Assembly: GCA_951406725.2 (NCBI GenBank) | Contig: OX597842.1 | Location: 28,148,001 to 28,212,000 of the forward strand | Length of the DNA: 64,000 nucleotides | Direction: 5' to 3' | Source: Octopus vulgaris | Lineage: Eukaryota | Shown here: in pieces, positions 24,072-63,923 of the stretch | Layout: every line of letters starts with the position of its first letter | Numbering within the stretch: position 1 is the stretch's first letter | Translations under genes and position numbers: made by a program | Notes under the pieces: generated by a model | The model's input: only the letters and a program-made list of their open reading frames with translations | Told to the model about the DNA's origin: nothing | The model's database searches: none

Positions 24072-24120
<49 letters not shown>

Positions 24121-29156: not shown

Positions 29157-29299
29157 CAAATCCACTTTTGCTGCGTATGTGTTGTCGACATATGGGGCAT
29201 TGCTTAAATGTCATTTGAGAACAGCAATTCTGACAAATAACGGTATGTTGACATGGATAGAGTGTGACAGTAGCCTTTTTCTCTTGACACCACCGACAC
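29157..29299 (-). CDS. Gene A exon: RING-HC (C3HC4) finger of Mind bomb/IAP type
   Basis: ccacag| CRWCQEKKATVTLYPCQHTVICQNCCSQMTFKQCPICRQHIRSKSGF |gtaag. 143 nt, phase 2-1. Confidence 0.92.
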
Positions 29300-30290: not shown

Positions 30291-30466
30291 AGTGATTGTA
30301 AAAATGTTTTTAATTTTTCTTTCAAATGTTGATTTTCTATGCAGTCCAATGGGGTCACTTTCTTATCATTACGATGGTATAAGCTGGCTCCATGGCTGGC
30401 AAGATAACTCAAAACTACTATTCCAGAGAGCCTCCTATCCATGTCCAGTTGGAGCTCTCTGCAGCA
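30291..30466 (-). CDS. Gene A exon: terminal ankyrin-like repeat and linker
   Basis: ttgcag| CCRELQLDMDRRLSGIVVLSYLASHGASLYHRNDKKVTPLDCIENQHLKEKLKTFLQS |gtaagt. 176 nt, phase 0-2. Resembles the pre-RING segment of Mind bomb proteins. Confidence 0.88.
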
Positions 30467-31471: not shown

Positions 31472-31509
<38 letters not shown>

Positions 31510-32534: not shown

Positions 32535-32744
32535 CTCATCTAAAATAGGAATGCGTTTCACCTCAGAATGAAATTCCTCTTTCTCTGCTGCAATATGCAA
32601 ACAATTATTGCCATCCTTGTCAACGGCATTCATCTTTGCACCGCACGTGATGATTTCATGGACTATTCCGAGGTGGGCTGCATACACGGCTTCCAGTAAG
32701 GGTGTTCTTTTATCATCGTTCTCAATATCCAGTTTCACTGAATC
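32535..32744 (-). CDS. Gene A exon: ankyrin repeats
   Basis: cacaaag| DSVKLDIENDDKRTPLLEAVYAAHLGIVHEIITCGAKMNAVDKDGNNCLHIAAEKE...ILDE |gtaagt. 210 nt, phase 0-0. Confidence 0.9.
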
Positions 32745-33494
32745 CTTTGTGGAAGTAAAAATAGAAATTGAAAATGTACATGAAAATTAGGGTGGATGTG
32801 ACATTGCTGTCTTCTACTGGGTACTTGATCAACCTGATCATGTACATTTGATGTTTGTTAGTGTAGTCAACCTTCTGTAAGGTCCCTCTATAACACGCTA
32901 TGGATATTTGTTAGGGACATGATAAATCTATTAAGATGTCATAAACAGATTGTTTCAGCCTCATCTTCATTTATCCCTCACTATATAGTATGTTTTAGGG
33001 GACTAGAACAAGAGTGAAAATATAATTAGCAGATCAAGTCTAGTAAAGACGAATTATATACTTAATGTAAGCCTTTCATGTTGCTATGTTAATAAGGGAT
33101 TCATAAAACGGGGGAGTTGGTTAGTGTCCACATCCTTACATCACTGTACATACAGATGCATAAATATATTAACGTTATGGATGTAACACGCACACACACA
33201 CACATATATATATACACAAACACATATATATATACACACACATATATATACACACACATATATATATACAGACACATATATATACACACACACACATATT
33301 CATATAACAATCAAAATTGCCACTGAATATATATATATAATATATAAATATATGCATATATACATACCTACATATATATATATGTATATAGATATATACA
33401 TGCATATATGGGTACAAGACATAAAAAAAACGAACACAATGAGAAACGAAAACATAGAAATGAACTTTTCTTCGAACAACTAAAAAAAACAAAC

Positions 33495-34535
33495 AGATCT
33501 CTTGGATCCACTTTAGACAGCCTCTCCTTCTCTCACGCGTTCTCTACATTTAGGAGCCTTTCATAGTGGCACTTCCAAGCCTATTTCTTTGCAGAGTCAC
33601 TAACTGCAAGGGAGCCATCATCCATGTGAACACACTTCTCTCCCACAACATCACAATTTTCCTTGGCAAGCCAAAACACTTCAAATCTCTGCTCCTCACA
33701 TTGCAAGACACTGGCAAACTTCTTCCTTTCTGCTTCACTCATGGCTGAGTATACCTGCTTCCTAGCTTCCTTTCTAACTGCCAGATACAACTCCCAGCTG
33801 CCACCACCCTTCCCATCCTTGTCCCTGTCAATTACCCTTTTCCACCACCACATCACCCTATGCCTGGCTGGGACATTGCACCAGCCACAAATTTGGTCTG
33901 AAATTCTCAGCAAGTTGTCCCATTGGAACTTCCACTTATCCTCAATGCTGCAAGTCTGAAATTCCTCCTCCTTCCCATTATATGCTTCATTTAGGACATC
34001 ACTAAATTTCTGACTAATTGAAGGTTCCTTCAGCTTCCATACTCTTCCTTTCCAAACTGGCTTGCTTCTTGGAATCCTTCAAGCCAGTAGCTTGAACTCC
34101 CTAATGAGTAACCTATGCTGTGGGCTACATTCTTCTCTATTGAAGGCCTTTGCATTTATGAGCAGCCATGAATCCTGCTTTTGGGTGAGAATGTAGTCAG
34201 TTTGGTGAGCATGTACCTTGGATTTATAGGTTATCAAGTGGCTGGCCAGCTTTCTGAAGCAAGTGTTGCGATTATTTGGTCATTTGCACCACAGAACTCC
34301 AGTAGCCTTGCACTCCCCTCATTTCAGGAACCAAATCTGCGTCCCCCATGGAAGATACCTCGGTGCTGCCCAACATATCCATTGAAATCACTGGCCACGA
34401 AGATAAGGTCACAGTCATTTATCTTTGAAGTGGCCAGCAGAAGAGTGTCATAGAAGTAGCCCTTCAGTTGATTTGGCAGACCCAGTTGTCTGTGTGTGTG
34501 TGGGGAGGAGCGCATAGGACGAGATGATTGTTGCT
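33495..34535 (-). mobile_element. Old degenerate RTE LINE fragment (endonuclease/linker region)
   Basis: FYDTLL, SDFNGYVG, DQICGWC, VVGEKCV segments homologous to 946..3393. Confidence 0.85.
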
Positions 34536-35392
34536 GTGCCTACATTGACTGCAGCTATCAGCATCTGAAAAGGTTGTTTATGGACACCTGTAAATAGGAG
34601 TTAATCAGGTATTGTCACCACCAGCAGTGGAGGGTGCCGCATCCTGGCATTCATGCAATGCAATGTTAATACAAATACAGGTAAATAAGTTAGGTAGACA
34701 AATACAGTAAGGGTAGTTAATCCATTGAGTTAGGTAGGGAGAAGACAAGGGAAGTTGATTCATCATGTATTGATGGTAATGGATTAACGAAGCAATAGGG
34801 ACTGAGTGCAGCGTACCCTCATTTAGCTTTGTTGCTGGGGACAAGGACTTTTAACTTTTCTCTGCTGCATAATCTCAGCATGCAATGTGTCTGGTACGAA
34901 TAACTCTGTGTGTACATAAACATATACATACATATATATATATACATACATAGATATTTATACATATGTACAGAGGGGAAAAAGTAGCCAAATAAATTAT
35001 TGCACACAAGATAAAATGTTGACACCAACAATGTACATATATAACATATCACACACACATACAACATGACAGAGCGATATTAAAAGATGATGATGATGAT
35101 GATGATAGTATATATAATCTGATATATATGGGTTGAATTCATAATGACCTTGTTTTGTCTGACCATTGAAGATAGTACTGTCAGCAGTGGTGGTCAGTTG
35201 AACTATCAACACCAATACTACTGTCATCATTGTTATCACCAATATAATTATTCTTCACAGACCCAAGACCTGCCGTTTAAAGGCTGCTGCAGTGAAGTTG
35301 ATTAAACCCACCCAGCAGAATTTCACTGGTATTTTGATGATATTAATATCGAATATTAAAGACAGGATATAATTATGTATTTGTTAACTAAC

Positions 35393-35429
35393 CTGGGCCA
35401 GCATTGAAGCCACCACATCATGGTGTTGC
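35393..35429 (-). CDS. Gene A short exon (37 nt), ankyrin helix
   Basis: actttcag| (K)QHHDVVASMLAQ |gttagt. Phase 2-0 bridges the 38117 and 32744 exons and completes an ankyrin repeat. Confidence 0.8.
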
Positions 35430-35529
35430 CTGAAAGTTATAGAAAGAGGAAAGGAAAAAAATAATTATAATCAGATTAATTAAAACAAATGTAATTGGGT
35501 CATTACAACCTAATTGCATCAATAATTAC

Positions 35530-35564
35530 TTACACACATAATACATATTATACATGTGTGTATG

Positions 35565-35602
<38 letters not shown>

Positions 35603-35617
35603 CATACATATATATAC

Positions 35618-35660
<43 letters not shown>

Positions 35661-36161
35661 TATATATATATATACACACACATACATATATATATATATA
35701 CACACATACATACATATATATACACACATACATACATATATATATATACACACATACATACATATATATATACACACATACATACATATATATACACACA
35801 TACACACATACATACATATATATATATACACACATACATACATATATATATACACACATACATACATATATACACATACATACATATATACACACATACA
35901 TACATATATATATACACACACACATACATATATATACACACATACATACCTACATATATACAAACATACATATATACACATACATACATACATATATATA
36001 TACACACATACATACATATATATATACATACATACATATATATATACACATACGTACATACACAAATACATACATATATATATACATACATACATATATA
36101 TATACACATACGTACATACACAAATACATACATATATATATATATTTATATATATACACAC

Positions 36162-36192
<31 letters not shown>

Positions 36193-36339
36193 CACACATA
36201 CATACATACATATATATATATACATACATATATATATATACACACATACATACACAAATACATACATATATATATATATATATATACACACATACATACA
36301 TACATATATATATATACATACATATATATATATACACAC

Positions 36340-36370
<31 letters not shown>

Positions 36371-36436
36371 CACATACATACATACATATATACACACATA
36401 CATACATTATATATATATATATACACACATACATAC

Positions 36437-36469
<33 letters not shown>

Positions 36470-36480
36470 TACATACACAA

Positions 36481-36544
<64 letters not shown>

Positions 36545-36686
36545 ATACATATATATATATACATACATATATATATATACACACATACATACATACATAT
36601 ATATATATATATACACACATACATACATACATATATATATATATATACACACATACATACATACATATATATATATATATACACAC

Positions 36687-36717
<31 letters not shown>

Positions 36718-36722
36718 CACAC

Positions 36723-36755
<33 letters not shown>

Positions 36756-36881
36756 CACACATACATACATACATATATATATATATACACACATACATAC
36801 ATTATATATATATATACACACATACATACATACATACACATATATATATATATATACACACACACATACATACACAAATAC

Positions 36882-36941
<60 letters not shown>
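35530..36941. repeat. 1.4-kb (TA)/(TACA)/(CA) compound microsatellite
   Basis: Direct sequence composition. Confidence 0.98.
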
Positions 36942-36942
<1 letters not shown>

Positions 36943-37189
36943 AAATAAGAAAATGGAGAAATACACCTTAATGAATAATCAACTACCAGATAATACCCAA
37001 TCACATAATTTATTAACCAACTACATATGAACATCAAGGTCAAACATAATAGTACAGAACAAAACAATGCACATCAATGAGTAATATGATACAATAAGTA
37101 AAGGAACCGAAACATGTAAAATTCATAAGAAAATCAAAATTTATCTAATATAGTAGCGTTTTCAAACCTCTTTTTTACAAATATATATA

Positions 37190-37235
<46 letters not shown>

Positions 37236-38116
37236 TACATATACCCGAAAACAACCACGCACACATATATGTATATATATACATACACATACATACTGTT
37301 AACTAAAATAGTATTAAGAATCATTAAAATTAAGATAATATTAATTGTTAATACAACGAAAGGGGTTGGAAGGGTAATTCGTAATATACAAAAAAGAGGG
37401 GCCTAAAAGGGTAGAAAAAGGTAAGGGTTAATAAAAGGCAAAGGTTGGGAAATATTGAGATAAAATTTCTAAGAAGGGTATAAACTCAAAACCCAGATTT
37501 ACCATAACCAGTGTAAAGAAGATGTAGGTTATTTGCATAAGATACATAATTAAAAATTACACCACATATTCCGTAAACAATCAGAAGACTAGGAAACCGT
37601 CCAGATATCAACACTTGTAAATTTTATCTGAATATTTTCCAACAGTAATCAGACACAAGAACAGGAGTAAAGAGGGGGACAATTTATTAAATGAACCCCT
37701 GGATATTACTGGTACAGATTTTGACCCCAGCAGTTGAACTTGGAACACAAACGGATCAAAGTAAGGGGATGATTCTGCATTTAGCCCAAGGCCAGAGGAA
37801 AGAGGATAATTTCAAGAGAAGGTGGGGGGTGAGGTGTTTTACATGGAATGAAAGGAAGAAGGGAGAGGATTTGAACCTGTAACGTTGAGGTAACGAAGGA
37901 TGAGATGAAGTAAAGAATCCAGTCAGGTAACAACAACAACAACAACAATTATGATGATTAATTAATGAAGTTAGATTACAGTGTCATTAGAGTGTGAGAG
38001 AGAGAGAGGGGTGAAGCATGACGACCCATGGTGGGATTATGACATGAATGACTCGAAACAAGAAAACAAAGATTAAAGAAACAGATTTGGATAATCCAAA
38101 TCCATTGGGGACTTAC

Positions 38117-38373
38117 TTTTGAACTGCCAGATGGAGAGGGGTGTCACCGTCTTCGTCCACCTTATTGGCATCGATGCCATTCTGTTGCAGGAGAAAATCA
38201 ATAACTTCCTTGTGTCCATGAGTAGAGGCAAGATGTAGAGGGGTGTCACCTTGCTTGGTCTCAGCTTTAACATCCGTGTCTTTATGTTGCAGGAGAAGTT
38301 CAACAACGTCCTTGCTTCCATAGCCCGAGGCAACATGGAGAGCTGTTGCACTAAAATTATTTCGCTGATTAAC
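38117..38373 (-). CDS. Gene A exon: ankyrin repeats (most 5' exon found)
   Basis: tttag| VNQRNNFSATALHVASGYGSKDVVELLLQHKDTDVKAETKQGDTPLHLASTHGHKEVIDFLLQQNGIDANKVDEDGDTPLHLAVQ |gtaagt. 257 nt, phase 0-2. Confidence 0.92.
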
Positions 38374-39112
38374 CTAAAAAAGATAAAAAAGAAAGACATT
38401 AAAGATGGTGTTTATTGGGAACTTTGGGAAAATAACCGTGATGTGTGTCAGTATGTATGTGTGCGAAACCATCAAATTTTTAAAGTTTTTTCATGTTAAA
38501 TTCCGATATAATCCTAATCTACACCATTTGAAAGGGATTTGTAGAAATTTTCACAGAAACAAAATATCCACTTTTCTGAAAGTTATAGAAAAACAAAACG
38601 GATTTGGGTGAATTTTGAGAAAGTCAACTCCTCAACGTTTGAAAATTTGTTTTTACAACAATTTCCGATATAATTGGAATCTTCATCATCTGAAGCATTT
38701 TTGTCAAAGAAATTTCATTAAAAAATATCAATTTGTCTAAAAGTTATAAGGAAACAAATTCGTTTTCGGCATTTCTTGTTTCATTAAGGTTTTTTTCTAT
38801 TTCGAACCTCGCCCTGCCATAGAGATTTCTCCCCCGTGGGGCCTCCCTTCTCTCTCTCTCTCTTTCCCCCTCTTCTATCTAACACGCCAATCGACCCCCC
38901 CCCCCCGAAAAACCCCTAATCTCTATATAAACCAGTGTTTGCTCGGTTCCTGCCTCTACTCGATTCCTCATTGCTTTGCTTCGGATGATAAACTTGGATT
39001 TCAGAAATGTGCAGCTAAGATAACCTTGTTTCATTACCGTTTAGGCGCTGATCTCGAACCCCGATACCTTCTCCCCTCTCCATTAACTATCTCCCTCCTC
39101 TCTGTTTTAAGA

Positions 39113-39496: not shown

Positions 39497-39679
39497 CAGT
39501 CCGCAGTGAAGATTGTTTTTGTGCTGAAAAGTTTGAAAATTTGCTGTTTTGGTCGTGGAGGCCACTTCTTTTCTGCTGTTCTTTCCCCCTTGTTTCAAGG
39601 GGGAAGTGACGAAAAGACATGAATTTGCAACCAGTCTCCTCCGAGTCGGAGGAAAACGTTGAAAATTTGTTTGAAGGCG

Positions 39680-41207
39680 ATGAAGGCGAAAATGCGGGAG
39701 GAAGAATGTAGAAGTAAAGAGACGTCTCACGCGAGCCTCACAAAAGCAGACCACAATATGTCTGGCGAAGTTAGTAAACGACAAGAAAAGGCAAAGATAA
39801 AGTTTGCGAGTGCAGCAACTCGCCCCTGTGAAAATATAGTCATCAACAAGGAAGAATTAAAGAAATACCAAGGACTACTAAAAAAAGAAGGTGATAATGT
39901 GAAGTTGTTCCCTCCCAGTGAATTGATTTACGCGACGGAGAGAAAAACTGTCATATACAAGACTTATAATGTCAAAAATAAGAAAATTGACTTCGTACAG
40001 AGAGAAGCCATAGAAAAATGTTTGAGGCCGATATGGCAACAAACTACATTTATAACAAGGGGTAGTCGCTTCGGCACGGTAGAGGTGCGTTTCCCTAGCG
40101 AAGAAATAGCTAGGGAACATTCAACAAGAACGTTGAAGTCGGAAGAGGTAGTTCTTTTACCATTTTATTTAGGAATGAGAACTAGTAGAATAACGGTTAC
40201 GGACATTCCGCCCGAAATCGAGGTGGATTTTATAACAGCAGCGATTCTCTTAGGCAAAGAGGAAGAAATTGCCATTCTTCAGTCTAAAAGATATCGCCCC
40301 ACAACCTGGTATGGACAGGACTTAGAGCTTGTGATCCAAGCGAACCCTCGGACTTGGAAAAATTGCCAAGCTCCCTCACCATTGGAGATACCACCTTGAT
40401 GGTAATAGTCGAGGGAAGAAAACCGAGATGCTATAAATGTGGCGAGAAAGGCCACATACGGTCGAGCTGCAAGAAGACAGCGAAAGAAAATACTACAGAG
40501 GCAAGCACGACGCCGAAAACAACTTCACCGCTAGAAATAGCAGCCACGTCGCGCACCCCAATTGCCGAAATTCAGCCGACAACGGGAGAAAACGATGACA
40601 ACAACATCAACAACATCCAGGAGTGGGTCAACGTGGAAGCTTCAAAAAGAAGACGGAAACGGAAAAATCCACCCTCTTCGGATACACAGGACTATACTCT
40701 GACACAGACAAGCACACCCACACCCACAAATACAGTCGCAAACACACACGTAGCCAAAAAAACACACACACTGGAAAAAGCACACACAAACACTCACACA
40801 CCTACCACAAGCACGCACACACCTACAAACACCCACGCTTCTACAAGCACACACACACACAGCCCCCTCCACAATCACCTAACAAAAAAAAAAGAAACAC
40901 CTTCACGGCGATAAATAAAAACAATAACCCATTAAGGGAAAAAATTAATTTACTGAAATCGGCGAAAAAATATATCGCAACAGATATAAATAGTATTATA
41001 TCCGAAAATGTAGAATTTTATACGATAGATAACGCGGAATATTTTGAAATTAAAAAATCTTTTGCGGAGGATGTAGGCCCGTTACAGATGAACTTTTCAA
41101 GCCATCTGTACAAGCAATTCGCAAAAAAACTGACCTCGCAAAACACAACACTCACAGACAGAAAAGATGAGGGTGAAACTACACCCTCTCTTCCGTTAAA
41201 ACAGTAA
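39680..41207 (+). CDS. Tx1/L1 ORF1 (gag-like), split by two apparent frameshifts
   Basis: Overlapping ORFs 39659..40399, 40354..40914 (CYKCGEKGHIRSSC) and 40623..41207. One shift is probably at the A-run near 40885. Confidence 0.75.
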
Positions 41208-41226
41208 GTTTTAAACATTCGACTAA

Positions 41227-44200
41227 ATTTTCACATTCTCGTTTAAACTCGGTTGTATAAATACTCGCGGCCTGGGGTCGTATTGGAAGCAAGGCTACCT
41301 CCTTAACGACCTTAGGTCGCATCGTTTGGATGTAGTGGTAATTACCGAATCCAGACTGAGTGGGCTGCAGGCTTTTTCGGCCCTTCTAAACGGCTACGAG
41401 AAATACATTTCTCCCTGTCGACCTGGAGGGGGAGGAGGAGTGGCAGTGCTGGTCAGGAAAAACCTGGATTTAGAGATTAGAACTGTCTTTATAGATCCGG
41501 AAGGCAGGTTGGTCGTTTTGGATGTGACGCACAGCAGTGGTAAAGTGTTCAGGCTGGTCGCTGTCTACGCTCCCTGCGCAGGAAAAGCCGGGCAGAAAGA
41601 GTATTTCAAAAGCCTAGAGAATTTTCTTGGCACGTCGAACACGTTAGTATTGCTAGGTGACTTCAACATAATTTGCGATGCAAGCGTAGATTATGTTGGC
41701 TCGAGAAAGAATACGAGGGGATTACCTCACCTCAACGATATGCTAAGTCGTTTCGAATTGGCAGATAGATTCAGACTGGACCATCCAGACACTCCAGAGT
41801 GGACCTGGGCAAGAAACGACGGGTCGTCCAGATCTTATATCGATAGAATCATAACTAGAAGGAAAGATAAGAAAATACTTAGCTGTCCACAACACCATAT
41901 CGTCAGCTACAGCGATCACAAATTAGTGACCTGTACGCTCGACATAGATAGCATGTGTAGACGAGGTACCGGTTACTGGAAGCTAAACAAGTCACTATTT
42001 GACTGTGAAGCCTACAGGAATCGGATTAAACAATTAGTAATGAGGGCGTTAACCGGATCCATTATCAACAATAAATGGTGGTACGCCCTGAAAAGAGCCA
42101 TCAAATTTGAGTCAATTAGGTTTAGCAAAGAACTAGCTAGTGCTAGAAACAAAGTAGAAAAGGAACTAGTTAAGGCAATAGAGGAGGCAATGAGGTCAGG
42201 CAGTGCATCGAAAGTGTTAGCGGCGAGGTTAGCACTAGACCAACATCTCCAAGCTAAACATGAAGGGTGCATTGTCAGGGCTAAGATCCGTGCAATGAGA
42301 CAGGAAGGGATCAACGCAGCCGGATGGGCCCGGGTGGTAGAGGGCCAGCGTGGCAACAGCTCAACCATTCGATCCTTGACGGGCCCAAATGGTCGATTAG
42401 TAAACGAACCCGAGGAGATGTGCAAGGTGTTTCATGATCATTTCGCCCAGCTATTCGGGAGGAGCGGCGAGCTGGAGCGCGGGGAGAAGCTCGCAGACTT
42501 CCTAGCCGGTTCGCCGCGTCTATCGAGGCCGGACGCGGAATCTTGTGAGGCGCCGATCACAGCCAAAGAAGTCGAGGATATGTTGGCAGAATGCGGCGGG
42601 GACAAATCGCCGGGACTCGATGGTCTGCCTTACGAACTCTATAGTAGCATGCCAGACTTGTTTGGGCACCTACTTGCATGCGTGTACACCAACTGGCAGC
42701 AGAACGGGAGAATTCCTAAGTCTGTGAGCCGAGGGGTGGTAGCGTTGTTAAGAAAGGACCCAAACAAGGGGGATTTAATTGATAATTTCCGGCCTATCAC
42801 TCTGCTTAACGCAGAGTTGAAGATCTTGGCCAAGGTCTTAGCAAAAAGGTTGGCGAGGGTCGTGGGTGAACTTGTTGGCGAGGCGCAAACTTGCGCCATC
42901 CCTGGAAGGACCATCCAAGACAATCTCCACTTTCTACGCTATGCCTTAGAAAGGGTAAATAGGATTCCTGGCAAGGGTGGGGCTATGGTCCACTTGGACC
43001 AATCGAAAGCGTTTGATAGGGTGGACCATCAGTATCTGGCGGCGGTCCTCGCGGCGGCTGGCTTCGGCCCGACCTTCCGCGGATGGATCTTCGCTTTATA
43101 CAGCAACATCGAATCGGTAGTTCGGGTAAATGGTTTCCTTTCGGAACCGTTCAGCATTGAACGTTCGGTACGTCAAGGGTGTCCTCTCTCCCCGCTTCTC
43201 TACGTTTTGGCCCTCGAGCCGTTGCTGAGGAGGTTGGAAACTATGAGAGGCACCCCGCAAGATCTAGGGTGCGGAAAGTCAGCTTCGGCGTATGCGGACG
43301 ACATCACCGTCATCGTTTCCCGAGTCGAGCACCTACAGTGGGTGGGTGAGGCCTTAAGGGACTACGAAGCGGTGGCAGGAGCGAAAGTCAACCGGGATAA
43401 ATCGGTCGGCTTGCAACTCGGCACCTGGAGGGGCAAGTCGATGTCTTCCGACAGCGTCGTAGGACGTTGGACGGAAGGACCGGTGAAAATGCTTGGGATC
43501 TGGTTAGGTCCAGATCTCCAGATAGAGAAGAATTGGAGCGAGGTGGCGAGAAAGGTGGCTCTCCTAACTCAGACATGGTCTGAACGGAATCTGTCCTTGA
43601 AAGGGAAGGCGGAGGTTGCAGAAGTGTTTATCGCCTCTGTAATCACTTACCGCCTAACCGTAGTGCCTTGCCCCGATTCGTGGCTGAACAAACTGGAACG
43701 CATGCTCTTTCGCTTTTTGTGGAGGGGCAGCAGACCTCTTGTAAGGCGCTCTATTTGCTGCCAAAAGCCGCTGAACGGTGGGTTAGGGATGCCGTGGCTA
43801 AAAATGCGCAGACATGCGCTCAGGCTAAGGCACCTCTGGATTTACCTGGACGGTGAGCAGGTGTGGTCTCCGTTTGTCAAGCTGTTATTTCCACAGTTCA
43901 CATCGTTTAACGAACTGAACCCATGGATCAAGTGTAGACCGAGGTTGGGCATGTGGCATGCAGAGTGCTATCAGGCACTCGTGCTTCTCTCCCAGTCGGG
44001 CAACGCCGGTGGCGGGGCTACTACCGCGTTCTTCTATAGAGGGTTAGTAGAGTTTAAGTGTGACGACGTCCTAGGAGAAACTCTGGGCTTCGACGAAAAT
44101 CAACTGGCCAGCCTGTTCCAAAGAACATTCGGTCCGGGGCCTATGGATAATTACCAAAAGTCCCTGGCCTGGCAATGTTACAGAGGAGCTTTACCGGTTC

Positions 44201-44643
44201 GAGATAAGCTCTTTAGACATGGGTGTGCACCTTCGCCGGTTTGTGCAAGATGTAAGAGGGACAGTGAAACTGTCCTGCACGCGATTGTGCAATGCCCCAA
44301 GGTGACTGAACTCTGGACTTATGTCGAACACCTGCTGTCGCATTCGAGAAGAGTACAACTGTCGAGCGAATCTGTAATTAAGATAGTTCCGCCGACCTTC
44401 CTGAATAGGGAGGAGCGAGCCTGTTTTCTCTCGGTAGTTGCTATGGCGAAAGAAGTAGTGTGGAAGACGAGAGTAAAAGGAATTGCAACAGGCATGTTTA
44501 TCTCCAGTCTCGAGCTAATCGACTTTTTCGTTTTCCACATGAAACGGAAAATAAGGCTGGAGAAGAAATGCCTGTCGCAAAGTGTGTTTCGTAAAAGATG
44601 GAAGTCTACAGCAAGTATGTTGCGAGTGAAAGAACCTGTTTAA
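41227..44643 (+). CDS. Tx1/L1 ORF2: APE endonuclease, RT, C-terminal zinc finger; intact, no initiating ATG
   Basis: Open from the stop at 41224. Motifs CINTRGL, ITESR, GDFN, SYIDRI, SDH, YWKLN, KSPGLDG, DQSKAFDRV, RQGCPLSP, YADD, CARC...HAIVQC. Confidence 0.95.
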   Translation: MFTFSFKLGCINTRGLGSYWKQGYLLNDLRSHRLDVVVITESRLSGLQAFSALLNGYEKYISPCRPGGGGGVAVLVRKNLDLEIRTVFIDPEGRLVVLDVTHSSGKVFRLVAVYAPCAGKAGQKEYFKSLENFLGTSNTLVLLGDFNIICDASVDYVGSRKNTRGLPHLNDMLSRFELADRFRLDHPDTPEWTWARNDGSSRSYIDRIITRRKDKKILSCPQHHIVSYSDHKLVTCTLDIDSMCRRGTGYWKLNKSLFDCEAYRNRIKQLVMRALTGSIINNKWWYALKRAIKFESIRFSKELASARNKVEKELVKAIEEAMRSGSASKVLAARLALDQHLQAKHEGCIVRAKIRAMRQEGINAAGWARVVEGQRGNSSTIRSLTGPNGRLVNEPEEMCKVFHDHFAQLFGRSGELERGEKLADFLAGSPRLSRPDAESCEAPITAKEVEDMLAECGGDKSPGLDGLPYELYSSMPDLFGHLLACVYTNWQQNGRIPKSVSRGVVALLRKDPNKGDLIDNFRPITLLNAELKILAKVLAKRLARVVGELVGEAQTCAIPGRTIQDNLHFLRYALERVNRIPGKGGAMVHLDQSKAFDRVDHQYLAAVLAAAGFGPTFRGWIFALYSNIESVVRVNGFLSEPFSIERSVRQGCPLSPLLYVLALEPLLRRLETMRGTPQDLGCGKSASAYADDITVIVSRVEHLQWVGEALRDYEAVAGAKVNRDKSVGLQLGTWRGKSMSSDSVVGRWTEGPVKMLGIWLGPDLQIEKNWSEVARKVALLTQTWSERNLSLKGKAEVAEVFIASVITYRLTVVPCPDSWLNKLERMLFRFLWRGSRPLVRRSICCQKPLNGGLGMPWLKMRRHALRLRHLWIYLDGEQVWSPFVKLLFPQFTSFNELNPWIKCRPRLGMWHAECYQALVLLSQSGNAGGGATTAFFYRGLVEFKCDDVLGETLGFDENQLASLFQRTFGPGPMDNYQKSLAWQCYRGALPVRDKLFRHGCAPSPVCARCKRDSETVLHAIVQCPKVTELWTYVEHLLSHSRRVQLSSESVIKIVPPTFLNREERACFLSVVAMAKEVVWKTRVKGIATGMFISSLELIDFFVFHMKRKIRLEKKCLSQSVFRKRWKSTASMLRVKEPV

Positions 44644-47075
44644 TCGAGAATGTGAAAAAGGAGAAAGCAAAGTCTTCAGTGTGAGGATGTGGTTTGTGGG
44701 GTCAACCGCGTCCTCCGCTTCATTTTTTTGTTAATCACTCATTCTCATTTAATTGTATATATATTAATTGTTTGTTTATTCATACGTTTCGTCTCATTCG
44801 ATACCCTGACCCCAACGTTTGTTTTGTCCCCTCTTTTTCTCAACCTTATGGTGAATAAAGAAATACTCTCTCTCACCCATTCTCCTTATGCTCTCTCTCT
44901 CTCACCCTTTTTCCTCCTCACACTGTATTTTTCTATCAGTATTTCCCCTTCTCCCATCCTCCCTTTTATTCTCTCACCCTATCTCTCTCTCTGTATTTTC
45001 CCCCTCTCTCATTCTCTCACTTATTCTTTTACCCCCTCTCTCTTTCTGTATTTTCCTGTCTCTTATTCTTTTACCCCCTCTCTCTCTCTGTATTTTCCTC
45101 TCTCTCATCCTCCCTCTTATTCTCTCTCACCATCTCTCTCTCCCATTCTCCTTATTCTCTCTCACCCTCTCTCCCTCTGACACTGTATTTTTCTCTCTCC
45201 CCGTCTTGGGTGGGCGACACGGGTGGAACGGAGGTTTTTGGAAATTTTGTTTTTCTAATTTTCGCTTTTAAAATGCGTCCTTCCTTTCTCTTTGATTTCC
45301 AAATAAGCTTTTTTAAATACTTCGAAATCAAAACTGGGCGCAGCCGTACCTTAAATAAGCAGTCTATTCACCTGCTAGAAATAGCAGCCAAATCTCACAC
45401 AAACTCTTTTTCGCACATTTTTTTCTATTTGTAAATTTTTATTTTTTCCATAATCGATTCATAGAATCCGATTATATCGCATTATTATTTCTATTCGTAG
45501 GGGTTGTGATGAGTTTCCACAAAAATCCCAAACTGGTCGGATTTGTTTCTTGGCGATAAAATTTCAGAGAAATTTCCCGCGCTAACCCCCCCCCCCAAAA
45601 AAAAACAGGTATTATATATACTGTGTGGCAAAAAGGGAAAATAAAGGGTTCGTTTTATTTATAGACGACATTGATTGGTTGAAATTGCAGAAATTGAAGA
45701 AAAAAAACAACAAATATCTTACAAACTATAGAATTTTCTCAAGAAAACCAAGAGAAAAAGATGTTTTATAAACACATTCTACCAGTATATGAAGTTTAAA
45801 AGTGTTTAAGTTACGTGGAAATTATTTTAAAAAACTGCCGTTCAAACGGAAAAGATCCCCATCTAGCCCTGTCATATTGTGTATGTTATGCTGAATCTCC
45901 CTGTGAACTACATTAAGGGTATGTGTGCCTGTGGAGTACTCAGCCACTTGTGCATTAATTTCACGAGCAGGCTGTTCCATCGATCATATCAAAAGAAACA
46001 AATGTTGTCATAACCGGCCGAGTGCTCCTAATGTGCTTTTGTCTGACCCATGCAAGCATGGAAAAAGAGATTTTAAAACGATGATGATGATTAGAAAAAT
46101 AACCCTGAAATATTTCCTCAGGAAAATATTTCCCACACAAGTTTCGATGTTAAGCGAGAAGGGTGGAGCAAACCAAACGACATTTCTGCGGCGCTTCCTT
46201 TCCTGGTGTCAGGGCCTGGCATGTAGGAGAGGCAGTCCTTAAATCCACTCCATGCCAGTGCCTCGTTGTAGAAGGGGCAGCAGCGTCAAAGATATCTTGG
46301 TTCGAGGACAGATTCGAGATCCTCTTGCTTACACCTCTCACTAGGTTCTTGAAAAATATAGGGCTGGTGCCAGTTCTAATGCAAGACATTCTCTGGTTTG
46401 GCTTGTGATAAAGCTTGTGTCTACCAGAGCACAGATCGAAAGTAACATGGAAGAAAGTTACTGTGAGGAGTTTAGTCTTGTGTTGAGGTCCAGAAGGCAA
46501 GTTGCTGAAATGGGAAACTAACGAATTGTGGTTCTAATCGTTCTGCACATTTATCAGTGTGATAACTGAGGTATATTCGGCGATATTGTGGGGAGGAAAT
46601 TTGTTGTTTGTGGACCATACAGCTCTTTTGGATTAAAATTCCTCTCGAATCAATTTAGTTTCGAAGGCAGCCCAAGCATCTGATTATGTAAATGAGGTTT
46701 TGGGGTGTGCAAGGGACGTTGGATTTGATTTTGAATATTTGCCCTTGTCTGAAATGGAATTTCGATCCTTCTAAAAGATTTTCTGCAAATAGGTGAACCA
46801 CACTTTACAACTCTTGCATCTGTTGTTCTGGGGAATAGTTTGGCATCGGTGAGAATCTTCAACAAGTAAGATTGAATAAAGAAGACTCATATACCCCCAA
46901 ATACAGACCAAATAAATAAATATGAACCCATATTAAAAATAAAGGACTTACCCCATCTAATGTAGGGCATAAGCCAGAAAAAAAAAAATAGAGAGAACAA
47001 ATAAAAATTTACAGATTTACCTCCCCTTAACTGTAAAATATATGAATGAACAATTATCTCCACTTGCCGTATATA

Positions 47076-53050: not shown

Positions 53051-53256
53051 TCAATTGAATTCTGATGATAAATATTTGAGTGCATCTTGACATTCAGTTC
53101 TTACAAGAGCTTCTTTTAATATTTGAAGTGTATGTTTCTCTGGATCATTACCTCGCTGCCATCTGAGCAGCATACGGTAGCCTTGTTCCACAACGTCAAG
53201 AGGATAGTCCTGCTTGATGATGTCCATGTCATTTTGTGGAATTCCTAATTCCCTTC
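53051..53256 (-). CDS. Gene B terminal exon: Death domain C-terminal part
   Basis: GRELGIPQNDMDIIKQDYPLDVVEQGYRMLLRWQRGNDPEKHTLQILKEALVRTECQDALKYLSSEFN*. Same acceptor and length as A. Confidence 0.88.
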
Positions 53257-56949: not shown

Positions 56950-57021
56950 CAAGTACCATCCATTTACCTGCCAACTTTTGGGACACCCATTGAAGATGCC
57001 TCTCCTCTAGCGTTACAGACT
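56950..57021 (-). CDS. Gene B exon: Death domain N-terminal helices (72 nt)
   Basis: ESVTLEERHLQWVSQKLAGKWMVLG. AG/GT intact, phase 1-1. Confidence 0.85.
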
Positions 57022-58927
57022 CTGAAATAAATATTTCCAAATTTTACACTTCATAGCACAATTTCCCGATCTCTGTTAATGGTTTATATTTTATTATTGT
57101 AAGACATTCCTATCATCAATGGACAACTTCTGACCACTATAGGTTTGGTTGACACTTTTATACTTCCTACAGTGGTCCTATATAATGGCTCAATATTTAG
57201 GTCCATAACAAAATAGACTGACCTTCCTAAGCCTCCTTTTTCTATTAAGACATCCTACTTAATCTAACCATGTTGCAATCATCTTATTTAATGATCACAT
57301 GTTAACACCTTTTATCTTTCTTCTCTCTTGTATCCATGCTAAACCTATGACATGGCATTGTCCCCTCACCACTGGACTTCACTTAATCAACATTCCCCTC
57401 ATCTTTTGCTTAATTCTGATGTCAACCAAGCTGGTCATCAACGACCTTGACACAAACTCATGTCACACCTGTTATCTTTGTCAAACGTTGCTGCTTTTAA
57501 TCTTTAATTTTAAACTATGCAACTCACAGTTCACCAGAATTTCATCTGATTCAGGAAATATTTAAGGACTCCTTAATGAAATGCTTTTCTTTCCTGATGA
57601 GCAATGATTAGTTCTACACAGGTGAAACAGAAAGTGATAGCAAGTATCCTAAAACACTGTATACTTGCACAAAACAAGCATTTCAAAGTTTTATACTTCA
57701 TAGTAAAGTTTCTTTGTCTCTTTTAATAATCTATATTCCATTTTTGTAAGGCATTCATATCATCAATAGTCAATTGGTGACCACTATGCTTTCGGTCAAC
57801 ACTTTCTAAGCTGTTACTATATAATAGTTCAATATTTAGAACCGCAGCAAAATAGGCAAACCTTTCTAAATCTCATCTTTCTATTAAGACATCCTATATA
57901 CTAATCTAACAATTCTGAAATTCTCTCACTTAGTTATCACTTCATAACACTCTTTTTCTCTTAGTTTTGTCTTTCCTTTGTTATGTCTGTGCTGGTCATA
58001 TGACATGCCATTGTCCTCTCATCTCGAACCTTCACTAACCAATATTCTTCTCATCTTCTACTAAATTCCAGTCTCAACCAAACAGGTCTTCAAAGATCTG
58101 GCCACAAAGGCATGACACATTGCTTCAGGAAGGATAAACATACCCCAGCTCTCATTTTTATATGTTACTGTTGGTAATCTTTAATTTTAACTGCCCACAT
58201 CACACTTCACCAGAATACCACCTGATTCAGGAAAGATCTGAAGATATTTCAATGTCATTCATCCTCCTTAATAAGCAGCTTTTTCTTTTTCCAGGTGAGC
58301 AATGATTAGTTCTACACAGGTGGAGCAGAAAGTGATAACAGGTATCCTGAAACATTACATTTGTATAAAACCTCCTTAACTTAAAACTGTTCATCTACAC
58401 ATTATTGCAAAGGAGTTATACCTGAAATGGGACACTAGAATTCATTCTCAAGAATATATAAGACTCGCTAAGAGTCAGATCCTTAAACTCTCAGTCGAGA
58501 TTTTGTCATTGAAATTCTTACATTACAAAGCTGACTGTGATGTTGTAGGAAGTACTGTTGTCCTTAATTATCAGTTTCCCAAGATACTTATAAATCATTA
58601 ATCTCATATAAAAGCTGACAACTGAATATAAAAAGTTGATGTTTACTGATGGGACCTTGGAGATTTATTGATATTTCATTTATATTTCAGTAAAACGTAT
58701 TAATCTTATGTTGCAGACAGTACTCTTTTGATGTGGGACAGGTTTCCTACTTGGATAAAGACAATATTCAGTGGGTGTAGTCATGGATATACTATCAAAG
58801 AGAAAAGACACCTGGGACATCTTTTATCATACGTCTGTCAGATTATGACAGATCTGGGTCGATACAACATTATTCCATTCCATAATGTCATGTGACAAAC
58901 AGACAGATCATCAAATCATATTCTTAC

Positions 58928-59049
58928 CAACTCTCCTTTTGCTTTCTATACATGTTTTATACTTGGGGAATCTTTCAGGTTGAGTTTTGCTACTATCTTC
59001 ACAGGGTTGTAACTCCATGCTGGCTTCACTCTCTTCACAAGGCATACAT
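58928..59049 (-). CDS. Gene B exon: degenerate RING homolog, still open
   Basis: ccacag| CMPCEESEASMELQPCEDSSKTQPERFPKYKTCIESKRRV |gtaag. 122 nt, phase 2-1. Flanks are homologous to the RING exon flanks at 29.1-29.4 kb. Confidence 0.75.
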
Positions 59050-59403
59050 CTGTGGAAAAAACATAAAACACATCCCACCTATAACATTCAGTTCTAACAA
59101 ATATTACATGTTTGTTTTATGTTTACAGTACAGAATATTATGAAACACCAGACTGACCAGAGTGAGGTGCATGGCTAAGTTGTTAGGCTTTTGGACTCAT
59201 AGAGTAAAATTGCGGTTTCAATTCCTGGACAAGGCGATGTGTAAAGTTCTTTAGCAAAACACTTCAGTCTAGGTTTGCCCTGCATACAAACCTGCCCCTT
59301 GTTATAGGTGAGTCCATGTTCATTGATCTACATCTTATCAACTTCAGATGTGTTCCTCCAAAACAATTTTATTTGCCTCAGTTGATTGGATCAAAACCCA
59401 AAC

Positions 59404-59695
59404 GAGTTAGTTAGTTAGTTAATTTGGCTCAAAAGCAAATTGCAAGGCCATGTAGAGGGACATGGAGTTAAGTACAGGGTGGTGTTCAAGTAAAGAGTTC
59501 AGGCCACTTGAGGTCAAGGGAGGCTTTGAACAAAGCGGTCATCGGCATCTTCACCATCTCATCTGGCAGCTTGTTCCACGGATCCGCAACCCGGACGGAG
59601 AAAGCTCCTCTCCCTCGATTGAGATGAAATCGTCGCAGGTAGAGCTTTTCGGAATGACCCCGCAGCCGACGCTCTGGATTCACCTTCTACTGAGC
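59404..59695 (-). mobile_element. CR1-like LINE 3' end with (CTAA)n tail
   Basis: RRLRGHSEKL...AFSVRVADPWNKLP...FKASLD motif. Confidence 0.8.
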
Positions 59696-60849
59696 TATGT
59701 GCATACTGTTTAGCTTCTTATAAGGACAGGTGTGATAAATTGAGCTCTTCGTCATTCACCACCTGATACACACCTGAAGTTACATATTGTAGGTCCCTTA
59801 AATCATGACTCAATACCAGATGCAAACTGGTCTGAGGATATCCTCGTCCATGAACCATGACAGATTTAAATCGAGATACAAATTATTGTTTAAAAATAGC
59901 CACAGTTTATGCAATAAAGTTCACTATTTTTGATTCCTAAGTTAAAAGTACTGATTCCAATCTCATTTGTTAAACCTGGACACATTCTTTACTGTGCAAT
60001 GGTGTTTTTAGCATGGCTGGCTACATTTTCTTTCACAAAGACCTTTTTCATTACCTTGGAGGTGGTGCGATGGTCTATGCTTGCTCAAGCTTTTCAGAAA
60101 TTGCTTGTGAAGATTTAAACCAGTCACAAGAGGAAGTTTTCTGCGACATAAAAGCACATCAACATTTACCATCCTCGAAACTTTTTAGAGCTGCATCTAT
60201 GAAAATGGTCACCTATGTTCTCATACTTGTGATTTCAATTACCCAATATTGATTAGGAAATCTTTCACTGGCCACAAAATGCAACCGATTTCCTTCATTT
60301 AATGTTAGATTCAAACTAATCCCAAGTAGTCCTCTCTCCCTTAAAAGGTAACAACACTTTCGATCTGCTATTTACCACTGCTCCTGAAATTATCAGCCTC
60401 AATAGTGATGAACCCTTAGGTGACTCTGATCATACTCCAGTCTTGCAAAAATATTTCTAATGGATAGAAAGAAAGCCACCATAACCTCCAAACTGCTTCG
60501 CTTTCCTGGAACTCCTACTGTACTGAGGTATAGTTCCCTGACTGGCTTCGACTTTACAATTCTGGAGATGTCAAGACTAACCTTCAGCACATCCATCCTT
60601 AATTCATGAATAAGTGTCGGTGCCATGCAAACGTTTTAGAAGCCTGAATATGTGAGAGACTGCCAGGAAATATCGATGAGATGCTGGACGTGATAAAAGA
60701 ACAGGGGATAAAAGAAGAAGGTGCAACATGGTACCCTGCCATATTAAAGGAGTGATAAATGTACCGTTTTCACTGCTACTGAGATCAAATTCCATAAAAC
60801 CTGTTGAATTCTGCAATATCGCAAGGCTAATTGAAGCATATGTGCAATT

Positions 60850-62200
60850 ATGCTTCCTCTTGTCTTGGTGGTGTTATTCATCTGCTTCTCAAAGGGTGCA
60901 CCCTTTTTCTACTGCACCAGCTTTTTGTCCTCTTCTAATTCACACTTAGCCCAGTTTAATGGAAAGTTGCCATTATCCTCCCCGTTCAAAAAGGGAGTGA
61001 CCAGACATCCCCTGTTGACTACCATCCAGTCAGTCTCACAGAATTAATGGATCTACAGGAAGACATTTTGGAACATCTGGAACCCTCATAAGCTTATTCA
61101 AACTCCAACCATTTCGATTTATCCCTAACTGTTGCTGCATTGAATTTCTTCCCAGATGGTGGTTCATGGGTGGATATTATCTCTATCAACTTCACCAAAG
61201 TCTTTAATTCCATGCCACAGTGATCAATTACGGCACAACTGTCTGGAATGGGTGCGAGGACTAAATTATATAACTGCTTAAAATACTTACATTCTCAGTT
61301 GAAAAGACAGAGTCACAACACTAAGCTAACATTCTGCACCCAACACAGAAGACCTACAAGGAACTACTCTTGGTTTTCTCTTGCTCCTTCTATGTATCAG
61401 CTAAATACATGCCAACTATCTGCTATAGATCCTTTCTTCAATCTGACCTGGATACAATGCAGCAATGCACTGCTGATTGCAAACTCAAGCTGGCTATAGA
61501 ATGGTGCACCACTATACACTTTGGAATGAAAATTCAAAAATGTACCAACTCTCTCCAGAACAGCAAACTTCAAAAGTCTGCAATGTGTAATGCATGAACC
61601 ACATTTCTAAAAATCATCAGAAATATCAAAGTATTGCTCAGTAAAACCTCTGCCCGTCAATTTGTCAAGTTATCAGTTTAAAATTATGCCTGGCTATCAT
61701 ACGTCTACACTTACAGTTTACATTTCCAATCTGGAATCCCCATCCTGTCCAGAATATCTATTCAGAGAAGAACAACAAGGCAAATGCTCTCTCTTAGTTA
61801 CCATATCTTGAATATATTGCTTCTCTGGGTATTGACATCTTATTAGATGCTATATACCTTTGCTTCAATCTGATCTCCAAACCAGGCAAATACTCTCTGT
61901 TAGTCACCATATACTGAATGTATTGTTTCTCTGGGTATCAGCACGCTAAAGTTTTGAAGTCTAGCAGCTAATCTGGTATAATCCCTTAGGTTTATACATA
62001 ATCTTGCCAACAACAACTTTGGCAACATTTTTGAATTCAAAATCTCAGCCAGCAGCAGACATTCTTATAAAATTAAAATAAAAAACAGTGCAGCACCCAT
62101 GACTTTACGAAATACTTTATCTCACTCAGAATTATTTAAGCACACAACAAACCACCTGAGTCAGCTGTTAGCTGTCAGCATACGGCATCCTCCAAAATAG
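60850..62200 (+). mobile_element. Highly degenerate CR1-like LINE remnant
   Basis: Remnants PFKKG, VDIISINFTKVF, WNPH, and a 3' cagcacccatgactttacgaaatac segment similar to 15645-15680. Confidence 0.5.
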
Positions 62201-62612
62201 TCTTTTCTTACCGAGGATATATAGCCAGTACAAGGTGTTGATGTGGCTGCGTGTATGTTATTTACAAGAGTTCATAAAGAGATGAAGAATAAATTCAAGA
62301 CCTATATATTTACTACGGAAAAATATATTTTATTTACTGGTCGATGACGATACACAGAATTAATATGTAGCATCTAGTTGAATGAAATAATCTATACAAG
62401 AAAGTTCAGAGATAGGAAATATAGAAATAATAGCCAAGTGGTGGCTTTCAGCCATGTGTCGTAGAGAAACAGACGGACATAGCAATGACGTGAATGGCTC
62501 TAAGTCTAATCGACTAAGAAGCAAAGAGCAGGGTTAGCAAGCTTACATACACACATACATGCTTACATACATAACTACGTACGTATATATCCATATATAT
62601 CCATATATATAG

Positions 62613-62661
<49 letters not shown>

Positions 62662-63427
62662 CAAATACATATACCCGAAAACAACCACCCACACATATAT
62701 GTATATATATATATACATACACATACATACTGTTAACTAAAATAGTATTAAGAATCATTAAAATTAAGATAATATTAATTGTTAATACAACGAAAGGGGT
62801 TGGAAGGGTAATTCGTAATATACAAAAAAGAGGGGCCTAAAAGGGTAGAAAAAGGTAAGGGTTAATAAAAGGCAAAGGTTGGGAAATATTGAGATAAAAT
62901 TTATAAGAAGGGTATAAACTCAAAACCCAGATTTACCATAACCAGTGTAAAGAAGATGTAGGTTATTTGCATAAGATACATAATTAGAAATTACACCACA
63001 TATTCCGTAAACAATCAGAAGACTAGGAAACCGTCCAGATATCAACACTTGTAAATTTTATCTGAATATTTTCCAACAGTAATCAGACACAAGAACAGGA
63101 GTAAAGAGGAGGACAATTTATTAAATGAACCTCTGGATATTACTGGTACAGATTTTGAGCCCAGGAGTTGAACTTGAAACACAAACGGATCAAAGTAAGG
63201 GGATGATTCTGCATTTAGCCCAAGGCCAGAGGAAAGAGGAAAATTACAAGAGAAGGGGGGTGAGGTTTTTACATGGAATGAAAGGAAGAAGGGAGAGGAT
63301 TTGAACCTGTAACGTTGAGGTAACGAAGGATGAGATGAAGTAAAGAATCCAGTCAGGTAACAACAACAACAACAACAATAATTATGATGATTAATTAATG
63401 AAGTTAGATTACAGTGTCATTAGAGTG

Positions 63428-63460
<33 letters not shown>

Positions 63461-63564
63461 GAAGCATGACGACCCATGGTGGGATTATGACATGAATGAC
63501 TCGAAACAAGAAAACAAAGATTAAAGAAACAGATTTGGATAATCCAAATCCATTGGGGACTTAC

Positions 63565-63923
63565 TTTTGAACTGCCAGATGGAGAGGGGTGTCACCCTCG
63601 AGGTTCACCTTATTGACATCCATGCCTTTCTGTTTCAGGAGAAAATCAACAACTTCCGTGCGTCCATGAGTAGAGGCAAGATGTAGAGGGGTGTCACCTT
63701 GCTTGGTCTCAGCTTTAACATCCGTGTCTTTATGTTGCAGGAGAAGTTCAACAACGTCCTTGCTTCCAAAGCGACAGGCAAGATGGAGAGCTGTCCAATC
63801 ATGTTCCGACACAGCATTAACATCCGTGTCTTTATGTTTCAGGAGAAGTTCAACAACGTCCTTGCTTCCATACCAACAGGCAAGATGAAGAGCTGTTGCA
63901 CTAAAATTATTTCGCTGATTAAC
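63565..63923 (-). CDS. Gene B exon: ankyrin repeats (one more repeat than A)
   Basis: tttag| VNQRNNFSATALHLACWYGSKDVVELLLKHKDTDVNAVSEHDWTALHLACRFGSKDVVELLLQHKDTDVKAETKQGDTPLHLASTHG...GDTPLHLAVQ |gtaagt. 359 nt = 257 + 102. Confidence 0.92.

What the first reader, a model, noticed from the sequence alone, without database searches (positions are those of the whole stretch)
56950..63923. Copy B looks like an in-frame, RING-dead, shortened partner (possible decoy or paired regulator)
Seen: B's RING-position exon keeps both splice sites, its phase and an open frame, but is 21 nt shorter. It retains the first three Cys while losing the His and the later CxxC pairs. I could not find homologs of A's 37-, 210- and 176-nt exons (423 nt = 141 codons) in B. 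B's ankyrin exon ends in phase 2 and the pseudo-RING exon starts in phase 2, so direct splicing is in frame. A ~2-kb deletion (A 23221-25260, junction at ~57675) also removes the symmetric micro-exons without breaking frame. Inference: several frame-preserving losses suggest B is maintained as a ligase-dead ANK-Death protein.
Basis: partly seen in the sequence, partly recalled or inferred. Interest (0 to 1): 0.7.

Follow-up and report, generated by a model that had tools for sequence, protein, structure and literature searches.

The report
Ligase-dead copy in octopus gene array
This is one copy in a large, fast-changing octopus family of ankyrin-RING-death genes; it keeps an open reading frame but has lost most zinc-binding residues of its ubiquitin-ligase finger, so it would likely act as a non-tagging competitor within the family rather than as the partner of its neighbour (which lacks its own first exons), and its expression is not shown.

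Summary
The two-gene picture is not. B is one of at least 28 close RING-bearing copies. Its RING comes from a different subfamily than A's: an 18-nt deletion plus 9 amino-acid-changing substitutions leave 3 of 8 zinc ligands. The three-exon loss is one older deletion shared by four copies, one with an intact RING, so it is no mis-join and predates RING death. A lacks its own first three exons, so it is a poor partner. Frame preservation is weak evidence. Better evidence for a selected protein: 8 shared changes in 122 exon bases against 8 in 4,417 intron bases, and a second, independent RING deletion shared with Octopus sinensis. Public contigs show the ankyrin-to-RING splice only with intact-RING letters; B's own letters were not seen in the 5 of 8 runs covering them. 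B's start exon would fall in an assembly gap. The scan noted this family before on other DNA; its RING-dead members were not found in those notes.

The parts
63565..63923 (-). B ankyrin exon, 359 nt, phase 0 to 2 (one 102-nt repeat more than A); ends after the first helix of a repeat
62538..62543 (-). junction (6-nt microhomology beside a TA/CT microsatellite) of the 7.3-8.7 kb deletion that removed the 37-, 210- and 179-nt exons; same junction in B, R1, R2, R3
59410..59677 (.). 268-bp repeat insertion, 100% identical in B and R2, absent from R1, R3 and the long copies compared
58928..59049 (-). B ex-RING exon, 122 nt: 18-nt in-frame deletion (His plus one Cys) and 9 non-synonymous changes including Cys6Ser (58994), Cys7Phe (58969), Cys8Tyr (58960); identical in R2
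57675..57676 (-). junction of the deletion that removes the 51-nt micro-exons (A 23221-25260); seen in B only among 16 modelled genes
56950..57021 (-). B death-domain exon 1, 72 nt, phase 1 to 1
53051..53256 (-). B death-domain exon 2 with stop; holds a phase-0 GT site after 53105 that a public gene model uses to fuse B to A
39510..44860 (+). LINE retrotransposon between B and A, open 1138-codon endonuclease/reverse-transcriptase frame at 41227-44643; A's likeness to B's upstream DNA ends at its edge
38419..38420 (-). junction in A of a ~1,075-bp deletion that removes the asymmetric 157-nt exon present in all 15 other modelled genes
18605..38373 (-). copy A: exons 38373-38117, 35429-35393, 32744-32535, 30466-30291, 29299-29157 (intact RING), 25253-25203, 24950-24900, 22566-22495, 18810-18605; 400 open codons but no start exon or first two ankyrin exons of its own

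Best explanation
B is a RING-broken, open-frame member of a large, fast-diversifying octopus ankyrin-RING-death gene array, and it likely makes a ligase-dead ankyrin-death protein that would bind targets or death-domain partners of the family without tagging them. Shown: it arose in steps: (1) one microhomology deletion made a short subfamily (ankyrin joined straight to RING) of four copies; (2) the RING then changed (three loop residues and Cys7 in B, R2, R3; the 18-nt loss, Cys6 and Cys8 in B and R2); (3) B alone lost the micro-exons. Inferred: selection, not drift, fixed the RING changes; the product would act as a competitor or non-degrading adaptor for the family at large (for example RING-intact short copies such as R1), not for A, which as assembled has no 5' end of its own. 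The idea that the family are variable intracellular sensors is taken from earlier scan notes and is supported here only by the substitution pattern.
For: Shared junction in 4 of the 10 B-type RING copies, the other 6 keep the three exons; the four form one branch, 94/95, below the tool's starred level. RING exon: 9 changes in 122 nt against 15 in 1,490 flanking intron nt (P 3e-5); on the branches shared by B+R2(+R3) 8 of 122 against 8 of 4,417 (P 2e-9); all change amino acids. Leaving out three changes that may predate RING loss, 5 of 122 (P 1e-5), 3 of the 5 at ligand Cys codons (P 0.02, chosen after the fact). The motif shared by B, R2, R3 occurs at only these 3 places in the assembly, so no donor was found. 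Elsewhere the RING is conserved: 18 of 18 A-type RING exons keep all ligands. Death domain B-R2: pN 0.151, pS 0.026, intron 0.019. Private amino-acid changes in the death domain: B+R2 10 against 2.8 expected from private intron sites (P 7e-4), four short copies 16 against 3.3, nine close long copies 9 against 5.8. A second, independent 18-nt RING deletion in copy C29:21.23 Mb has an open frame and recurs in O. sinensis proteins P0008/P0009, 96.8% identical over 457 residues. The ankyrin-to-RING splice is real for the short subfamily: GT-AG joint 63565-59049 in one contig of run X9.
Against: No contig with B's own letters was seen: at 58960, 59029 or 59041 the five runs that cover them (X2, X3, X9, X11, X15) show only the intact-type letter, the X9 joint contig carries the 18 nt, and at 56990 runs X1, X3, X4, X9 show only the non-B letter (101 and 95 rows not shown; contigs drop rare variants, and these may be other individuals). 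B alone has 4 private amino-acid changes in the death domain against 1.7 expected, P 0.09 (the count was 7 with 12 genes and fell with 19). 9 of 9 non-synonymous is not significant by itself (P 0.19). Some private changes cluster (five in R2's first ten codons; two in one R3 codon) and may be single conversion tracts. Gene conversion can reset introns and spare a diverged exon, which inflates exon-to-intron ratios. B's start exon is unresolved: likeness to paralogues runs up to the 100-N gap at C29:28221031, about 0.55-0.65 kb short of it. The short form drops the end of the ankyrin stack, which may destabilise it (inference). Broken copies are common: 7 of 16 models were flagged broken (one of these opens if a duplicated unit is skipped; one lacked its ankyrin exon in my parse; single-base breaks may be assembly errors).
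Confidence: 0.5

Rival explanations
1. B is a young copy in decay (or a rare variant of this animal): after the short form relaxed constraint the RING broke, and the frame is still open only because little time has passed.
For: Terminal branches are about 0.4-0.5%, too short to expect many stops. B's letters are absent from the covered sites of 5 runs. The only public protein with the dead exon among 8 candidates is the model from this assembly. Breaks, partial copies and a frameshifted RING-less copy exist nearby. B's private death-domain excess is not significant.
Against: Neutral decay predicts the intron rate; the ex-RING exon changed 7-fold faster overall and far faster on the shared branches. 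No elevated intron divergence next to the exon (6 derived sites, one within 200 nt). Independent RING deletion kept in two species.
Confidence: 0.3
2. The ex-RING was not selected to be dead but was recycled: once the finger failed, selection removed free cysteines and the segment became one more variable linker, so B is simply a new ankyrin-death adaptor or sensor with no inhibitory role.
For: Three of the last five changes remove Cys; B has also lost the usual micro-exon linker; ankyrin and death exons diversify as in active copies.
Against: Cannot be separated from the best explanation by sequence; three Cys remain.
Confidence: 0.1
3. B and A work as one unit: a dedicated pair, or a read-through in which B supplies the 5' end that A lacks (B ankyrin donor 63565 to A acceptor 35429, both phase 2; or the GT after 53105 to A 38373, both phase 0).
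For: Both joins are in frame; public model CAI9744076.1 (P0001, 712 aa) makes the second join; A's 400 codons are open and it has no private death-domain change.
Against: The same annotation also fuses R1 to the next gene (P0007) and skips exons that are intact, so it is weak; the Val-Arg codons that make the GT site recur in paralogues; an intact LINE and B's stop lie between; A and B are head to tail and no closer to each other in introns than to other copies.
Confidence: 0.07
4. B's middle is an assembly mis-join, or B and R2 are two alleles of one locus placed in tandem.
For: The junction lies beside a microsatellite; the cluster has several 100-N gaps; 1-2% intron difference could be allelic.
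Against: Same base-exact junction in four places with their own differences; a spliced contig from an independent run shows the short form. Allelism of B and R2 would change the copy count, not the finding.
Confidence: 0.03

Closest known systems
Octopus 'MIB2-like' ankyrin-RING-death proteins in public annotation (e.g. CAI9744078.1 = R1, CAI9744076.1 = B fused to A; O. sinensis P0005, P0008; O. bimaculoides P0020)
   Same: Same family, same exons; B is already inside an automatic gene model.
   Different: The model fuses B to A, skips B's first death exon and does not flag the dead RING. No paper on the family turned up in three searches (listings only).
Mind bomb 1/2 (MIB1, MIB2) E3 ligases
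   Same: Ankyrin stack followed by a C3HC4_3 RING; P0005 aligns to an unnamed ankyrin-plus-two-RING protein P0023 (28% over 425 residues, E 8e-30), which I take for a Mind bomb fragment from recall.
   Different: No MIB_HERC2, ZZ or SH3_15 hit at E 0.001 in start-bearing members P0005 and P0016; one RING only; a C-terminal death domain; B has no RING.
TRIM49/TRIM51 active:inactive pair (PMC11992055, abstract and section 11 read)
   Same: A close paralogue with a diverged RING lacks ligase activity and represses the active one; this is the working model for B.
   Different: That paper locates the defects at dimer or E2 interfaces or the RING core; B has lost 5 of 8 zinc ligands. Binding there is by coiled coil and was shown by experiment; here it would be by death or ankyrin domains and is untested; B has dozens of paralogues, not one.
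Engineered E3 'decoys' (PMC6483598, 5 passages read)
   Same: Substrate-binding part without the ligase part acts as dominant negative.
   Different: Artificial, in plants; the passages gave no natural example.
cIAP/XIAP/MYLIP-type RING (PDB 6hpr, 3eb5, 2yhn)
   Same: Closest solved structures for A's RING, E 2e-7 to 9e-4.
   Different: No ankyrin or death domain shared; only fixes the ligand numbering.

Membership tests
Octopus ankyrin-RING-death family | Ankyrin exons, RING-position exon and two-exon death domain in the family's order and phases | tested here: met
Octopus ankyrin-RING-death family | Intact C3HC4 RING | tested here: not met
   3 of 8 ligands left; no Pfam hit
Mind bomb (MIB1/MIB2) | N-terminal MIB_HERC2/ZZ and SH3-like repeats (feature list recalled) | tested here: not met
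   none in P0005, P0016, P0001, P0002; B's own start exon is in a gap
Mind bomb (MIB1/MIB2) | Ankyrin array followed by two or three RINGs (recalled) | tested here: not met
   ankyrins present, one RING in intact copies, none in B
RING pseudoligase with an active paralogue (TRIM49/51 type) | RING-position sequence unable to support ubiquitin transfer | tested here: inconclusive
   sequence predicts loss of the fold; no assay
RING pseudoligase with an active paralogue (TRIM49/51 type) | Expressed as protein or spliced RNA | tested here: inconclusive
   short-form splice seen only with intact-RING letters; B letters not seen in 5 covering runs of 8
RING pseudoligase with an active paralogue (TRIM49/51 type) | Binds and represses an active paralogue | not testable with these tools
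   needs co-expression and ubiquitination assays
Dedicated gene pair (sensor/helper type; features recalled) | Two intact, adjacent genes with a one-to-one history | tested here: not met
   A lacks three 5' exons; A and B carry RINGs of different subfamilies and are two of at least 28 copies

The most novel reading that the evidence does not exclude
Octopuses carry a diversifying, immune-like array of ankyrin-RING-death ligases in which ligase-dead members have arisen at least twice and been favoured by selection, giving the array its own built-in decoys; B and R2 record the RING being dismantled step by step under positive selection.
Probability: 0.3. Interest if true: 0.68.

Novelty: new variant of a known kind. 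Interest (0 to 1): 0.43.

Why it matters
Inactive paralogues that restrain active ligases are known in vertebrate TRIMs (PMC11992055). An undescribed octopus array with intact, half-broken and fully broken RINGs side by side gives a natural allelic series (R1 intact, R3 one ligand lost, B/R2 five lost) on one short scaffold, which makes it directly testable whether loss of ligase activity can be selected in an invertebrate immune-like family. If B is silent, it is an ordinary casualty of a birth-and-death array, and the useful results are the corrected gene models (A has no 5' end; the public B-A fusion is doubtful).

Tried and rejected
Run search: no RNA holder listed; 24 runs, best share of words 0.42; 8 of the 24 were laid. 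X1, X4 and X12 gave no cover at the RING's diagnostic sites in the rows shown; no contig in 8 runs was listed across the 57675 junction, and the 62536-62735 repeat is skipped by the tool, so the deletion junction could not be checked in X15. B-to-A read-through was not tested: the laid stretches did not include B's last exon or A. Frame preservation as proof of maintenance: rejected (see verdict). 'B is a shortened A': rejected, the middle comes from the other RING subfamily. The first count of B-private death-domain changes (7) fell to 4 with more paralogues. No fold or complex was run: no tool-held sequence has B's whole death domain, and a model of the fused protein would give its two halves unequal alignment depth. 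A natural RING-less plant example that I recalled was not supported by the passages read and is dropped. Literature: five searches, listings and abstract starts only except PMC11992055 (abstract, section 11) and PMC6483598 (passages); no supplements were opened, and gene-family tables in octopus genome papers' supplements could list this family. Scan look-ups by words and near this place were empty.
Full report
Setting. The window is G000:C29:28148001-28212000. Public proteins on a contig of the same length are named Octopus vulgaris 'MIB2-like' or ankyrin proteins. It holds two head-to-tail copies of an ankyrin-RING-death gene on the minus strand, A and B, with an intact-looking LINE between them.

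Observation. B's RING-position exon is 122 nt against A's 143, keeps AG/GT and phases 2 to 1, and has no Pfam hit while A's scores E 6.5e-12 to zf-C3HC4_3. A's three middle exons are not in B's 4.5-kb intron (best tblastn E 0.13). The 2,040-bp micro-exon deletion is base-exact.

B is not a trimmed A. B matches A at 94-98% except between 58.0 and 62.6 kb, where it falls to about 70%. A genome search with that part gave 50 listed matches, 10 of them at 93-100% on C29. These carry a second RING type with a 140-nt exon. A's RING type has 18 copies at 96-100% among 40 listed matches; more distant copies lie on C31 and elsewhere. I modelled 16 genes (all 10 B-type, 6 of 18 A-type).

Order of events. 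Four of the 10 B-type copies (B; R1 at 28.24 Mb; R2 at 27.92; R3 at 28.04) lack the three exons, and all four share one junction, a 6-nt microhomology at window 62543-62538. They form one branch on 4,469 intron columns (94/95, not starred). R1 keeps an intact RING; R3 has Cys7Phe; B and R2 have an identical exon with the 18-nt deletion, Cys6Ser, Cys7Phe and Cys8Tyr, and share a 268-bp insertion. Only B lacks micro-exons. So the exon loss came first and is compatible with an active ligase; it says nothing about upkeep of a dead one. It also rules out a mis-join peculiar to B.

A is the damaged neighbour. Fifteen of 16 genes have the 157-nt exon upstream of the ankyrin exon; A has lost it in a 1,075-bp deletion, and no 152/155-nt exon or start exon lies between A and B. 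That exon is phase 2 to 0, so its loss would shift the frame of any upstream exon. The public model joins B to A through a GT inside B's last exon; the same annotation fuses R1 to the next gene, and I give it little weight. B's own start exon is unresolved: likeness to R2 and to the 27.6-Mb copy runs up to a 100-N gap and stops about 0.55-0.65 kb short of where they have it.

Is B under selection? Introns of close copies differ from B by about 1-2% in and below the gene (up to 7% further upstream), exons by 4-23%. For the death domain B-R2 pN is 0.151, pS 0.026, intron 0.019; over 12 genes mean pN 0.147, pS 0.070, intron 0.030. The family is diversifying, as earlier scan notes said. The RING is normally spared: 18 of 18 A-type exons keep their ligands; of 10 B-type, 5 are intact, 1 has a one-base loss in an A-run, 1 has Cys7Phe, 3 have in-frame 18-nt deletions. 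In B the exon has 9 changes in 122 nt, all non-synonymous, against 15 in 1,490 intron nt; on the shared branches 8 against 8 in 4,417. The depth columns for run X3 imply a contig with three of these changes but Cys7 intact (table 3; my reading), so three may predate the break; the other five still exceed the intron rate (P 1e-5) and three of them hit ligand cysteines (P 0.02, post hoc). Against: 9 of 9 non-synonymous has P 0.19 alone; B's own private death-domain changes are 4 against 1.7 expected (P 0.09), and only the pooled B+R2 count (10 against 2.8) is significant; unsampled alleles could have donated some, and conversion can reset introns. A second RING deletion, removing the last CxxC, lies in the 21.23-Mb copy, whose frame is open and whose O. 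sinensis match (96.8% over 457 residues) has the same loss.

Expression. Eight runs of contigs were laid; their RNA status is the tool's guess, though GT-AG joints show spliced molecules. One X9 contig joins 63565 to 59049 but carries the 18 nt and intact cysteines; loose ends in X2 (2 contigs, agreement 0.84) point to the same splice with R1-like letters. X3 and X12 join the RING exon straight to a first death exon with letters of other copies, so micro-exon skipping needs no deletion. The five runs that cover B's diagnostic RING sites show only intact-type letters. Contigs drop rare variants and the animals differ, so this is 'not shown', not 'silent'.

Mechanism. Shown: architecture, order of losses, substitution excess, splice of the short form. 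Inferred: with 3 of 8 ligands the finger cannot fold or recruit an E2 (established RING chemistry); a translated B would keep about five and a half to six and a half ankyrin repeats and a whole death domain, and would likely occupy targets or death-domain assemblies of active copies without ubiquitinating them, as TRIM51 does to TRIM49 (PMC11992055, section 11). Targets and partners are unknown. I put this at 0.5, decay at 0.3, recycled linker without inhibition at 0.1, a unit with A at 0.07, artefact at 0.03.

Novelty. The family is in automatic annotation and in three earlier scan notes; three paper searches aimed at it listed no description (listings only). Inactive ligase paralogues are a known kind. 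New here: the stepwise, apparently accelerated loss of the RING, its recurrence, and A's missing 5' end. Interest 0.43.

Noticed in passing
window 18605-39510: Copy A lacks its start exon and two further 5' exons; public model CAI9744076.1 fuses B to A through a GT inside B's last exon.
   Followed up: partly
window 39510-44860 (+): LINE with an open 1138-codon endonuclease/RT/zf-RVT frame; the same element lies downstream of copy R3 at about 97% identity.
   Followed up: partly
L057-L060 (G000:C29:21.21-21.24 Mb): Long-form copy with an independent 18-nt in-frame deletion of the last RING CxxC, open frame, same loss in O. sinensis P0008/P0009.
   Followed up: partly
L111-L120 (C31, C6, C28, C4): A further subfamily has Asp in place of the RING His in 9 of 10 loci fetched (L115 not parsed); all seven Cys kept. 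A variant ligand or another way to silence the RING.
   Followed up: no
L088-L089 (G000:C29:29364590-29371165): Copy with a long ankyrin exon followed directly by death exons and no RING; frameshifts and a phase 2-to-1 clash suggest a pseudogene or assembly errors.
   Followed up: partly
L021-L024 (G000:C29:28.21-28.25 Mb): B and the RING-intact short copy R1 lie head to head about 18 kb apart, but a 100-N gap at 28221031 separates them, so order and orientation are unproven.
   Followed up: no
window 56950-57021 and paralogues: The first death exon differs by 6-15 of 72 nt between copies whose introns differ by 1-2%; R1 and the 29.37-Mb copy have a 57-nt version.
   Followed up: partly
L034, L037-L038, L065, L075 (R3, 28.48, 28.27, 29.21 Mb): A phase 2-to-2 unit of the 157-nt exon plus ankyrin exon is duplicated in tandem in 4 of 16 genes; loose ends in X1, X4, X9 show ankyrin exons spliced to such a second unit.
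   Followed up: no
window 57020-58960: Several RNA-like contigs run from the RING exon on into the following intron or cover the intron above the first death exon (X1, X2, X3, X9): retained introns, early 3' ends or DNA in the runs.
   Followed up: no
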